From the NCBI GenBank assembly GCA_965153285.1, contig OZ229115.1: DNA of 64,000 bases, one strand, 5' to 3'. Of this stretch, positions 14,001 to 17,000 are shown piece after piece. Numbering within the stretch: the first letter of the stretch is position 1; each line of letters starts with the position of its first letter. The DNA is from Podarcis tiliguerta. Taxonomy: Eukaryota. The position numbers were made by a program.

Positions 14001-17000
14001 TACATCTACCAGCACGACTTGCGGCGCCCGCCCCCTAATTGTTTCCCCATGTTTTCTGGAGATTTACACTTCCGAAAATGACGTGCAAGCCAAAGTTAAT
14101 GACATGGAGCCTTCCCAGAGGAGCGTTCTAAGGGGGAAATGGCCTCTCTTGTGATGGAGAAGCAGCTATATAGGTAGACGAATGACGGGGTCTTTTAGTG
14201 CAGATTAATTGGTATCTCGTAATTTTTAACTTTTCCGTTTTCAACCTTTTTTGCGTTTTGCCCGATTCATTTATTTTTGCCTTTTGCTTTACAACTTTTC
14301 CTTTTTTGAATCTATGGGAATCTCGTGACGATTGCCAAAATTCAATATTATGCACATATCGTATTCATGGCATTTTATCCCGCTCTTCCTTCAAGCTCAG
14401 GCACCCCGCCACCCGTTTTTATTCCCTTTACACCCTTATAAGATGGGCTGCCTGAGAGACACAAGCCCAATGTCACCGAGGGAGTTTTGTGGCGGAGGGG
14501 GCATTTGCACAGGGTTCCCCAAGTCCGATGGGCTTGCGATCAGAACGCTACATTTCTGGCAGTCCTTCATTCATTGATATACAGTAAATCGTAATTACCG
14601 GTAACTTCAAAATAAGCAGACTTTTAAAATTCTTGCTTCCGCCTAAACACGTATAAAACTGCGCTATGGATCGGCATTAATAGAAACGAACAGCATCATG
14701 CTTTTAACAACACTGTTTTATGCCTGTTGATTTTTGTGAAGTTAGTAAGCATTCAAATCTATTTTTAACAGCAAAAAAGTAGCCCCACCGAAGCGGGGCC
14801 TCAAAAAATTAGTTGTAAACTCATAACTGTTCCTCTCCACGGAAATCTTTAGTAAAAGGCGAAAGATTTATACGATCTGAAGAGAAACCAGAGTATAAAC
14901 TTAAGCACCGTGGTAGATTTGCTGGAGTAACCACGCCTGCTTCTTAGGTGACAGCAACTCCTTTAAACCAAGGTTTAAAATCTTGCTTTTCAGCAATGAG
15001 TTATATTCCGGAATTTCTACTTGCTTTTAGAACCAGCACATGTAATATTTCACAACAGAAATAAACAGAAAATACAGATAAAAGAATTAATTCAGCGCAC
15101 TGCATTATGGTTGTGACTAAATGCAAAATAAGCTCACAAACTTTTCCTGCTTTACGCCCCGCCCTCACCCAAGCCGTCAGCAGCGGCTGGATGCCCATAT
15201 CTGTCAGTGGCTTCCCTTGCTGCTACAGACTTGTTGGGTCTTGTTCATAATGGTGGTTCAATTTTCTACATACAGTACTTGGAAAAATGATACCACTGGA
15301 TAATTACGTAGTGAGCAATGTAACTAACACGCAGTAAGTAGCAAGGCCCCATAAAAATCTACACTTGGCTATGACAACACACTAATGATTACGTAGTTTC
15401 TTTTCAATCTATCATCTCCAAGGAAGAAAAAAAATGCCCTTTTTCAAAAAGAGGATTTCATACTAAAAATATATATTTGCCAACAAATTTTCTTTTCAAA
15501 TTCTAGTCTCAAACTCAGCAATAACAAAGTTGCCAACCCGAACCAATGGATTAAAGTTACATGAAAGCAGATTCTGACTAAACATCAAGAAGCACTTTGA
15601 CAATAAGAGCTGTTTGACAGTGGAAGTGACTCCCTGAGAAGGTTGTGGACTGTCCTTCACTGGAGGTTTTTAGCACTGGCTGGCCACCTGTCATGGATGC
15701 TTTAGTTGAGATTCCTGCATTGCAGGGGGTTGGACTAGATAGCCCTTGGGGGTCCTTTCCAATTCTACAATTTCTATGATACCAGTACTTGGTGTCTGTT
15801 TCTGCACTTTCTTTTAGGGTTATCACACTCCCCATAAATACATTTTCCCTGTGCTGGTGGCCATCAATGCGTCGTGTGGGAGCAAGTTCCTTAGTTAAAA
15901 TATGTGCTGCATATTTAAACTACTTTTATCTGTTCCAAATCTTCCAACATTCAGCTTCATTGGATGTCCTTGAGTTCTAGCATTATGAGAGAGGAAGAAA
16001 ATCTTTATCCTTTTTCTCCATACCATGCATAATTTTATAATCTTTTATTATGTCACCACCTACTCACCTTTTCTTTAAACTAAGAGGTCCCAAATGCTGT
16101 GCCACCTTTCTTCCCAGGTGAGTTGCTCCATCCCATTTATCATTTAGGTTGCCCCTTTCTGAACCTTTTCCAAGTCAAAGGCGCACAAATGTGTGCGTGG
16201 AAACAGACCCATGTATGCACGAATGCCGGAGTGTAGGGAAGCCTTTATTGCCCTGCATATAAACAACAGAAGAAGAAGAATGGAGTTGCTTTAAGAACAT
16301 ACACTCTCCTTAACTGTCCCTCCCCTCTAGTGACTGATGCAGGGAGGTGGCTGACACCCCAACCAGGTATTATAGACTCAGCTCCTTCTTGGATTCTCAG
16401 ATTGCATTTAGAGTTTCCCAGTAACAGCTCTTACTGATTTGGTTAATATTATGTATTGCATTTACTTTAGGCCTTTTTATTATTACAAAAGGCAAAAATA
16501 AATGAATCGGGCAAAACGCAAAAAAGGTTGAAAACCTTTTCACGTCATATACTTTTTTCCACTTTGTACATATGGTTAGGAATGGACTATATGTACATAA
16601 ACATTTTTATTGAAGTGCTTGTGGATTAGGCTTGCAGTAGCACACAATCCAGGCCAGATATTACAGAGTGCTATCACAGAGAGGGCCCTGTCAGAAATAT
16701 AAAAAGCAAATAGAGACCAGGTGCACACACAGATCTCCTCTCCTTAACAGATCTTAGGTAACAGCAAACATAAACAGTAGCTACTGCCATGGTGATTATT
16801 CCAATCACTCTGGGCTACTTTGCTGCATCATTTTGGCTGGCTAGCACCACCTGCCAGTTACCAGCATAGCAACTATAGAAACTCCATATGCTGTTGTAGT
16901 CCTTTCCTGCAAGGAAGAACAAGTGCCCAGTGCCTTCCAAATAAACACCACCCTTTGTGGAACAGCAGCAGCAGTCACTCCTCATGATGACGGATCTGGT

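What the first reader, a model, noticed from the sequence alone, without database searches (positions are those of the whole stretch)
14237..16535. Perfect 50-bp inverted repeat brackets a 2.3-kb block containing the whole U5 snRNA unit
Seen: 14237-14286 and 16486-16535 are exact reverse complements of non-microsatellite sequence. The enclosed block holds the U5 3' box, gene, PSE and DSE plus two CR1 fragments. CTTTTC lies just outside both arms (14230-14235, one base off, and 16536-16541). Inference: perfect identity implies a recent event or ongoing homogenisation. Candidates are a staggered-break inversion (which leaves inverted duplications at both breakpoints), an invertible and possibly polymorphic cassette that flips U5 relative to the KIF2C and CCDC17 promoters, or TIRs of a DNA element that captured a U5 gene.
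Basis: partly seen in the sequence, partly recalled or inferred. Interest (0 to 1): 0.75.

Follow-up and report, generated by a model that had tools for sequence, protein, structure and literature searches.

The report
Inverted 50-base duplication around U5 gene
In a reptile genome, a U5 spliceosomal RNA gene lies in a 2.2-kb stretch framed by two identical 50-base sequences in opposite orientation, most likely a harmless scar of chromosome-break repair and not a jumping gene.

Summary
14237-14286 and 16486-16535 are exact reverse complements (50/50). They have no third copy in the window and no similarity beyond their edges. A complete U5 snRNA gene (14781-14896, minus strand) lies between them. 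The block fills most of the spacer between the divergent KIF2C and CCDC17 start codons.

- **Transposon reading is weak.** There is no exact abutting target-site duplication, no transposase or reverse transcriptase, and no second copy. The interior is old resident DNA, including a dispersed repeat only 70-75% identical to its relatives.
- **"Perfect identity means recent" is overstated.** Zero differences in 50 bp still allows about 6% divergence between the arms.
- **Strand composition argues against a net inversion.** All four flanks are T-rich on the + strand. The T-rich left arm fits its surroundings; the A-rich right arm is the odd one out.

My best reading (about 0.5): the right arm is an inverted 50-nt copy of the left arm, put into a second T-rich tract during break repair. 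The block is now collinear with its flanks. A staggered-break inversion that is still inverted is the main rival (about 0.22).

No reptile DNA collection was available. Outgroup orientation, genome-wide copy number and read support stay untested.

The parts
14237..14286 (+). Left arm of the inverted repeat (T-rich: 28 T of 50; AT skew -0.70). Probably the original copy.
   Evidence: identity. (it matches the T-rich make-up of both its flanks).
16486..16535 (-). Right arm, the exact reverse complement of the left arm. It is A-rich on the + strand (AT skew +0.70) between two T-rich flanks. Probably the derived, inserted copy.
   Evidence: (flank skews -0.48 and -0.52). (away from the arms, both flanks are opposite in only 5 of 603 strongly skewed 50-mers).
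14225..14241 (+). First copy of a short T-rich direct repeat (core AACTTTTCC at 14228-14236). It runs 5 nt into the left arm.
   Evidence: the 9-mer recurs at 14293. (17 of 19 aligned with a 2-nt gap; 23 of 1000 shuffles reach the score).
14288..14306 (+). Second copy of the same T-rich direct repeat (core AACTTTTCC at 14293-14301), just inside the left arm.
14230..14235 (+). CTTTTC outside the left arm, one base short of it.
   Evidence: Such a match, with offsets of 0-1 on each side, occurs in 84 of 61501 random position pairs. CTTTTC is locally frequent: 9 between 14000 and 16800, against 51 in the 64 kb.
16536..16541 (+). CTTTTC abutting the right arm on the outside.
14781..14896 (-). U5 spliceosomal snRNA gene, full length.
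   Evidence: RF00020, 110.2 bits, model 1-117 of 117.
14758..15164 (-). U5 transcription unit with its signals: a 3' box-like motif at 14769-14758, a PSE-like motif at 14951-14936, an octamer-like motif at 15128-15121 and a GC box at 15164-15156.
   Evidence: Read by eye. The consensus motifs are recalled, not tested by a tool.
15570..15790 (+). Segment that resembles the 3' end of CR1-type LINEs (GGGTTGGACTAGAT...TTCCAA...TCTATGAT).
   Evidence: Sequence. The resemblance is recalled only. It has no relative in the window and no repeat library was available.
15907..16173 (.). Old dispersed repeat nested in the block.
   Evidence: 75% identical over 268 nt to 31282-31533, and 70-71% identical (reverse complement) to 32659-32825.
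13761..13826 (-). KIF2C coding exon 1 (22 codons, then a GTAAGT donor). Its ATG lies 410 nt from the left arm.
   Evidence: (aligns from residue 1 to 3 of 4 mammalian KIF2C N-termini examined). Downstream exons on the minus strand are mapped.
16984..17172 (+). CCDC17 coding exon 1 (63 codons). Its ATG lies 448 nt from the right arm.
   Evidence: (11 hits, 68-79% identity, 9 named CCDC17, all squamates). (residues 1-63 of two squamate CCDC17 proteins).

Best explanation
The two 50-mers are an in-situ inverted duplication left by repair of a chromosome break. They are not the ends of a mobile element.

Shown:
- The arms are identical, unique in the window and sharply bounded.
- They frame 2.2 kb of ordinary intergenic DNA (a U5 gene with its own promoter, plus decayed repeats) between the divergent KIF2C and CCDC17 start codons.
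- All four flanks are T-rich on the + strand. Only the right arm runs against that grain.

Inferred:
- The left arm is native to a T-rich tract about 410 nt upstream of the KIF2C ATG.
- A break in a second T-rich tract, about 450 nt upstream of the CCDC17 ATG, was mended with a 50-nt filler. The filler was copied in reverse complement from the left tract, 2.2 kb away on the same chromosome.
- The copying was a template switch during replication or break-induced replication, or polymerase-driven end joining with a templated insertion.
- The same end state is reached if a staggered-break inversion first made the duplication and recombination between the arms later flipped the block back.

Either way, U5 and the rest of the block were bystanders, and the block now lies collinear with its flanks. 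No function is needed. The only likely consequence is that the arms could occasionally recombine and flip the U5 cassette.
For: - **Identity, uniqueness and sharp edges:**
- **Flank skews.** The 30-nt flank AT skews are -0.36 (left outer), -0.45 (left inner), -0.48 (right inner) and -0.52 (right outer). The left arm is -0.70 and the right arm +0.70.
- **Window-wide comparison, away from the arms.** Among 603 strongly skewed 50-mers, 72 have both flanks skewed the same way and 5 have both opposite. A single flank is the same in 345 of 1206 and opposite in 113 of 1206. Abutting 30-mers are the same in 210 of 1714 and opposite in 72 of 1714. So both junctions of the right arm look novel and both junctions of the left arm look native.
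- **Shared 5-mers (60-nt flanks).** The present neighbours share more words (left outer with left inner 11; right inner with right outer 9) than the neighbours an inversion would predict (2 and 4). Background frequencies: 11 or more in 1.9%, 9 or more in 6.4%.
- **Direct repeat.** The left outer flank plus the arm start and the left inner flank share a T-rich direct repeat (23 of 1000 shuffles).
- **Age of the interior.** It holds a repeat only 70-75% identical to its relatives. The arms show 0 differences, which has probability below 0.001 at 24% divergence.
- **Literature.** Inverted templated insertions exist as germline variants (PMC8421209, passages read).
Against: - The compositional evidence is soft: a combined likelihood ratio of roughly 9, tests chosen after looking, and overlapping windows.
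- The documented inverted templated insertions in PMC8421209 were searched only with templates within 100 bp. Here the template is 2.2 kb away.
- Microhomology at the junctions cannot be judged without the empty site.
- Breaks may prefer T-rich|A-rich switch points, and an ancestral inverted arrangement would have had these. That would weaken the skew argument.
- The right inner flank and the start of the right arm form a quasi-palindrome (seen by eye). This could equally be a native fragile site in an inversion scenario.
- The direction of copying rests on composition alone. The 9-mer bracketing the left arm could instead be read as a target duplication of an insertion at the left.
Confidence: 0.5

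Rival explanations
1. Staggered-break micro-inversion that is still inverted. Two single-strand nicks 50 nt apart at the left breakpoint gave overhangs that were filled in on both ends. A second break occurred near 16535. The 2.2-kb fragment was rejoined in reverse, leaving the 50-mer at both ends in inverted orientation.
For: The structure is the one this model predicts: an inverted duplication of unique sequence at both ends, with sharp edges. In Drosophila, 17 of 29 inversions carry such duplications, the shortest is 46 bp, and 12 are duplicated from one breakpoint only (PMC1885836, abstract and passages read).
Against: The left inner and right inner flanks would have been turned round. Yet both are T-rich on the same strand as the outer flanks and share more words with their present neighbours than with the predicted ancestral ones. 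The left outer and left inner flanks share a direct repeat. The empirical odds are about 3 to 1 at each of the two junctions against this reading. The documented cases are large inversions in flies, not 2-kb ones in vertebrates.
Confidence: 0.22
2. The arms are terminal inverted repeats of a non-autonomous DNA transposon (14236-16535) that captured a U5 gene and inserted with a 6-bp CTTTTC target-site duplication between KIF2C and CCDC17.
For: The 50-nt inverted ends are perfect and sharply bounded. CTTTTC lies on both outer sides if the left end is taken one base further out. By chance this occurs in 84 of 61501 random pairs. The window does hold other short inverted-repeat elements.
Against: - No exact abutting duplication of 2-10 nt exists.
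- CTTTTC is locally common in these T-rich tracts: 9 in 2.8 kb.
- There are 0 Pfam families in the 18 ORFs of 50 aa or more that overlap the block. No RT or transposase was found in the 300 ORFs scanned in the window.
- There is no other copy of the arm or the block in 64 kb.
- The interior is old resident DNA with a repeat 70-75% identical to its relatives, while the ends are identical.
- The junction between the right arm and its inner flank looks novel by composition.
- Recalled only, not checked: U5 genes lie near KIF2C in mammals too. That would make U5 resident here.
Confidence: 0.07
3. Assembly or polishing artefact: one arm, or the orientation of the block, is not present in the animal.
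For: Nothing specific. It cannot be excluded without reads.
Against: There are no N or gaps in the window. Both arms join unique sequence on both sides with no other anomaly. From general knowledge, fold-back read artefacts give palindromes with one hinge, not arms 2.2 kb apart.
Confidence: 0.06
4. The two arms are independent fragments of one dispersed repeat family that happen to lie in opposite orientation.
For: The arm is T-rich and of fairly low complexity. BLAST with the DUST filter on did not report the pair.
Against: Both copies start and end at exactly the same bases and are identical. There is no similarity beyond them and no third copy or partial copy longer than 14 nt in 64 kb.
Confidence: 0.04
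5. The 50-mer is a duplicated cis-element kept by selection. It sits at nearly the same distance and in the same orientation upstream of each of the two divergent genes. It might, for example, act as a boundary between the U5 enhancer and the two mRNA promoters.
For: The arms lie 410 nt from the KIF2C ATG and 448 nt from the CCDC17 ATG. Because of the mirror symmetry, each gene sees the same strand of the 50-mer.
Against: The symmetry was noticed after the fact. No motif was identified and no conservation data are available. Identity over 50 bp needs no selection.
Confidence: 0.03

Closest known systems
Inverted templated insertions from template switching (MMBIR-type 'MMB-TI', polymerase-driven filler DNA at repaired breaks)
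   Same: A short stretch copied in reverse complement from nearby sequence on the same chromosome and inserted at a second site. Such insertions occur as germline variants (PMC8421209, passages read).
   Different: The described search covered templates within 100 bp of the insertion. Here the template is 2.2 kb away. Microhomology, a hallmark there, cannot be assessed from the derived allele alone.
Inverted duplications at inversion breakpoints (staggered-break model, Ranz et al. 2007, PMC1885836)
   Same: Unique sequence duplicated in inverted orientation at the two ends of a segment. The size is within the reported range (shortest 46 bp), and duplication from one breakpoint only is common.
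   Different: Those are large inversions in Drosophila, shown to be inverted against outgroups. Here the segment is 2.2 kb, no outgroup is available, and composition suggests no net inversion.
Non-autonomous TIR (class II) transposons, and Dada elements that target snRNA genes
   Same: Sharp inverted ends, a short direct repeat nearby and an snRNA gene involved.
   Different: There is no clean target-site duplication, no transposase and no other copy. Dada elements have no terminal inverted repeats and insert inside U6 or U1 genes with 6-7 bp duplications (PMC3706591, passages read). Here U5 is intact and lies inside the block.
Recurrent inversions mediated by inverted repeats (NAHR flip-flop)
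   Same: A segment framed by inverted repeats could flip by recombination between them. Recurrence was seen for 11 of 16 human inversions analysed (PMC3961182, passages read).
   Different: Those repeats are large. PMC8755829 quotes 50-250 bp as the minimal homology for recombination in eukaryotes, and 50 bp is at the bottom of that range.

Membership tests
U5 spliceosomal snRNA (Rfam RF00020) | Match to the covariance model above the gathering score, over the full length | tested here: met
   110.2 bits against a gathering score of 40, model positions 1-117 of 117, 14781-14896 minus.
Staggered-break inversion with inverted duplication | Unique sequence duplicated in inverted orientation at both ends of the segment | tested here: met
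   50/50 identity, only 2 copies in the window, sharp edges.
Staggered-break inversion with inverted duplication | The segment is inverted relative to the ancestral (outgroup) order, and the outgroup has one copy of the duplicated sequence | not testable with these tools
   No vertebrate DNA collection was available. Indirect compositional evidence leans against a net inversion.
Class II TIR transposon (non-autonomous) | Terminal inverted repeats | tested here: met
Class II TIR transposon (non-autonomous) | Target-site duplication directly abutting both ends | tested here: not met
   No exact abutting repeat for k = 2-10. CTTTTC matches only with a 1-nt offset.
Class II TIR transposon (non-autonomous) | Further copies of the ends or the element, or a related transposase | tested here: inconclusive
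   None in the 64-kb window. There are 0 Pfam families in the 18 block ORFs. The genome-wide copy number is not testable here.
Dada DNA transposons | Insertion at a fixed site inside an snRNA or tRNA gene, without terminal inverted repeats | tested here: not met
   U5 is uninterrupted and the block has 50-nt inverted ends. The family features are from PMC3706591.
Inverted templated insertion (template switch or filler DNA) | The insert is a reverse-complement copy of a nearby template on the same molecule | tested here: met
   The right arm equals the reverse complement of the left arm, 2.2 kb away.
Inverted templated insertion (template switch or filler DNA) | An empty recipient site in the ancestral allele, and microhomology at the junctions | not testable with these tools
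   This needs an outgroup or an alternative allele. Microhomology is absorbed into the arms in the derived allele.
IR-mediated invertible (flip-flop) segment | Both orientations present in a population or between close species | not testable with these tools
   No reads or population data were available.

The most novel reading that the evidence does not exclude
The 50-mers bound a cassette that moves or flips as a unit and carries a complete, apparently functional U5 snRNA gene. It would be either a TIR-bounded DNA element that captured U5 and inserted between KIF2C and CCDC17 with a CTTTTC duplication, or a segment that is polymorphic for orientation through recombination between the arms. 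The first would be a DNA-level route for spreading Pol II snRNA genes.
Probability: 0.08. Interest if true: 0.7.

Novelty: new member of a known kind. Interest (0 to 1): 0.25.

Why it matters
If the reading is right, this is a clean, datable example of a break-repair scar in a vertebrate promoter-rich spacer. It shows that such events can frame a whole snRNA gene without harming it. Its practical value is as a marker. Related species will show either one or two copies of the 50-mer and one of two U5 orientations, so the event can be placed on the tree and its mechanism read off directly. It would matter much more if the cassette proved mobile or polymorphic in orientation, but the present evidence makes that unlikely.

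Tried and rejected
- **Target-site duplications of known superfamilies** (motifs recalled). There is no TA, TTAA or TWA at the ends, no 8-bp or 9-bp abutting repeat, and nothing exact for k = 2-10.
- **Coding capacity.** Pfam on 150 of 231 ORFs of 50 aa or more that start before 30 kb (all those up to 20.3 kb) gave only a kinesin exon and weak chance hits, with 0 families in the 18 ORFs overlapping the block. Pfam on 150 of 166 ORFs of 62 aa or more that start from 20.3 kb gave only a TPR/SHNi-TPR exon. The last 16, beyond 58.6 kb, were not scanned.
- **Other RNA genes near the arms.** Rfam at E up to 1 on 13500-17500 gave U5 and two sub-threshold matches. ARAGORN found 0 genes. TRF gave 0 rows.
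- **Extension of the repeat or residual similarity:** none.
- **Microhomology at the junctions.** I first read it as zero, then dropped the argument. In the derived allele any microhomology is absorbed into the arms.
- **The 9-mer AACTTTTCC as a target duplication of a 56-nt insertion at the left.** By chance it occurs at 61 of 63700 positions, and at 30 of 7526 T-rich ones. The alignment runs 5 nt into the arm, so it is not a clean boundary.
- **Literature on U5-KIF2C linkage.** 0 papers hold both RNU5F-1 and KIF2C. A wider search listed 12 papers. Passages of two of them say nothing on it. The linkage in mammals remains recalled only.
- **A turtle KIF2C protein** had an aberrant N-terminus and could not confirm exon 1. 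Three of four mammalian proteins did.
- **Collections not used.** The prokaryote genome collection and the phage, plasmid and E. coli collections were not searched, because they cannot hold a reptile locus.
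Full report
**What is there.** The window is reptile (squamate) DNA without gaps. The stated arms, 14237-14286 and 16486-16535, are exact reverse complements over 50 nt, with 2199 nt between them. At up to 3 mismatches the 50-mer occurs only at these two places. None of 100 dinucleotide-preserving shuffles gave two matches. The longest other match to it anywhere in the window is 12 nt exact, or 14 nt at 93%. It is the longest of the 36 perfect inverted repeats of 16 nt or more in the window. 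The next non-microsatellite ones (35, 33 and 30 nt) are the arms of short hairpin elements elsewhere. The arm is T-rich (28 of 50) but is not a tandem repeat. BLAST with the low-complexity filter on did not report it; with the filter off it did.

**Edges.** I compared 300 nt on each side of each arm in six pairings, direct and inverted. The local scores were 14-19 against null means of 17.6-18.2, and 65 to 200 of 200 shuffles reached the observed score. So the duplication is exactly 50 nt. It is not the best-preserved core of a longer decayed repeat, and not two copies of a longer element.

**Content and setting.**
- A full-length U5 snRNA gene lies at 14781-14896 on the minus strand (Rfam 110.2 bits, gathering 40).
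- By eye it has a 3' box-like motif 12 nt downstream, a PSE-like motif at -55 to -40, and an octamer-like motif plus a GC box at about -225 to -268. The consensus motifs are recalled.
- KIF2C runs leftwards. A kinesin motor exon lies at 118-210, and its best PDB matches are seven KIF2C sequences.
- In the protein database, 2956 proteins had E of 0.001 or less among 3036 candidates. Most of the 120 listed are named KIF2C.
- A turtle KIF2C protein maps to eight exons from 118 to 11899 on the minus strand.
- Coding exon 1 is 13826-13761. It aligns from residue 1 to 3 of 4 mammalian KIF2C N-termini examined.
- CCDC17 runs rightwards. Coding exon 1 is 16984-17172. It has 11 hits with E of 0.001 or less among 19 candidates, all squamate, 68-79% identical, 9 of them named CCDC17. 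Fourteen exon matches reach 27039.
- The arms therefore sit 410 nt from the KIF2C ATG and 448 nt from the CCDC17 ATG. The block is most of the spacer between two divergent genes.

**Is it a transposon?** The features that define one are mostly missing.
- No exact direct repeat of 2-10 nt abuts the arms.
By chance it occurs in 84 of 61501 random position pairs. CTTTTC is also locally frequent in these T-rich tracts: 9 between 14000 and 16800, against 51 in the whole window.
- The 18 ORFs of 50 aa or more that overlap the block match no Pfam family at E of 0.01 or less. No transposase or reverse transcriptase appeared in the 300 ORFs scanned in the window.
- No other copy of the arm or of the block is in the window.
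- The interior is old. 15907-16173 is a dispersed repeat only 75% and about 70% identical to its two relatives at 31282-31533 and 32659-32825. The arms show no difference at all.
- A young element would have had to pick up 2.2 kb of old host DNA, including a host gene.
- Dada elements, the DNA transposons known to associate with snRNA genes, have no terminal inverted repeats and insert inside the RNA gene (PMC3706591, passages). That is not the case here.

**How recent?** Identity over 50 bp dates poorly. The chance of no difference is 0.61 at 1% divergence between the arms, 0.37 at 2% and 0.05 at 6%. With an assumed neutral rate of the order of 1e-9 per site per year (recalled, not measured here), the event could be up to tens of millions of years old. 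Homogenisation is not needed.

**Inverted or not?**
- All four 30-nt flanks are T-rich on the + strand, with AT skews of -0.36, -0.45, -0.48 and -0.52. The left arm (-0.70) agrees with its flanks, and the right arm (+0.70) opposes both of its flanks.
- Away from the arms, 603 strongly skewed 50-mers (windows every 5 nt, so overlapping) were examined. Both flanks are skewed the same way in 72 and both the opposite way in 5. A single flank is the same in 345 of 1206 and opposite in 113 of 1206. Abutting 30-mers are the same in 210 of 1714 and opposite in 72 of 1714. One search gave 77 and 6 of 619 before the arms' own windows were removed.
- The left arm therefore looks native (about 14 to 1), and both junctions of the right arm look novel.
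- A still-inverted block would need two ancestral junctions of opposite skew, at about 3 to 1 against each.
- Shared 5-mers in 60-nt flanks agree. Present neighbours share 11 and 9; the neighbours predicted by an inversion share 2 and 4. Background: 11 or more in 1.9%, 9 or more in 6.4%.
- The left outer flank plus the arm start and the left inner flank share a T-rich direct repeat, 17 of 19 aligned. Its score is reached by 23 of 1000 shuffles.
- These tests were chosen after looking and are not independent, so I take them as a lean, not a proof.

**Mechanism.** The reading that needs the fewest coincidences is this. A break in the right T-rich tract was repaired with a 50-nt filler copied in reverse complement from the left T-rich tract 2.2 kb away, and the block kept its orientation.
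- Inverted templated insertions are known, including as germline variants. However, the published search only covered templates within 100 bp (PMC8421209, passages).
- The same structure also arises if a staggered-break inversion made the duplication and recombination between the arms later flipped the block back.
- Ranz et al. found inverted duplications at 17 of 29 fly inversions, the shortest 46 bp, with 12 duplicated from one breakpoint only (PMC1885836, abstract and passages).
- Inversions between inverted repeats recur (11 of 16 analysed; PMC3961182, passages). But 50 bp is at the low end of the homology quoted as needed (50-250 bp; PMC8755829, passages).
- A staggered-break inversion that is still inverted is the main rival.
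- Microhomology cannot be used either way without the ancestral allele.

**What stayed unchecked.**
- No vertebrate DNA collection, reads or population data were available. Outgroup orientation, genome-wide copy number of the 50-mer and read support for the junctions are all open.
The prokaryote, phage, plasmid and E. coli collections cannot hold this locus and were not searched.
- Supplementary tables were closed and may bear on the size comparisons (duplication sizes in PMC1885836; flanking repeats in PMC8755829).
- The CR1 identity of 15570-15790 rests on recall only.
- The linkage of U5 genes with KIF2C in mammals would argue that U5 is resident here. It is recalled only and was not found in print: 0 papers, and nothing in the two papers opened from the 12 listed. 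No human sequence was consulted, and no contig was taken for human.

**Verdict.** This is a real and statistically unmistakable 50-nt inverted duplication, and it is of a known kind. It is most likely a neutral repair scar around a bystander U5 gene. The transposon and invertible-cassette readings remain possible at a low level. One alignment with a related species would settle it.

Noticed in passing
39374-39723, 43596-43719, 55535-55651, 59777-59894: Four short palindromic (hairpin, MITE-like) elements of 350, 124, 117 and 118 nt. Three have perfect arm stretches of 35, 33 and 30 nt. None resembles the 50-mer.
   Followed up: partly
45087-45350 (-) and 50172-51356 (-): An exon with SHNi-TPR/TPR domains, as in NASP-type histone chaperones, lies downstream of CCDC17. 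A long 395-aa open frame with no Pfam match lies nearby on the same strand and may be a large exon of the same gene.
   Followed up: no
48616-48708: A perfect tandem repeat of a 30-nt unit (about three units).
   Followed up: no
52739-53036 and 53514-53806: A duplication of about 300 nt (86% identical) that itself contains units of about 90 nt repeated at 52752, 52939, 53527 and 53710.
   Followed up: no
16460-16505: The right inner flank (CATTTACTTTAGGCCTTTT) and the start of the right arm form a quasi-palindrome of about 19 nt per side (about 16 matches by eye) around a 9-nt loop. After controlling for composition, the flank's likeness to the left arm is only marginal (42 of 500 shuffles).
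   Followed up: partly
14237 and 16535 relative to 13826 and 16984: The two arms lie at nearly equal distances (410 and 448 nt) from the start codons of the two divergent genes. Each gene sees the same strand of the 50-mer.
   Followed up: partly
17283-17338 (+): A weak Rfam match to the histone 3' stem-loop (20.5 bits, below the gathering score of 34) in the first CCDC17 intron. Probably chance.
   Followed up: no
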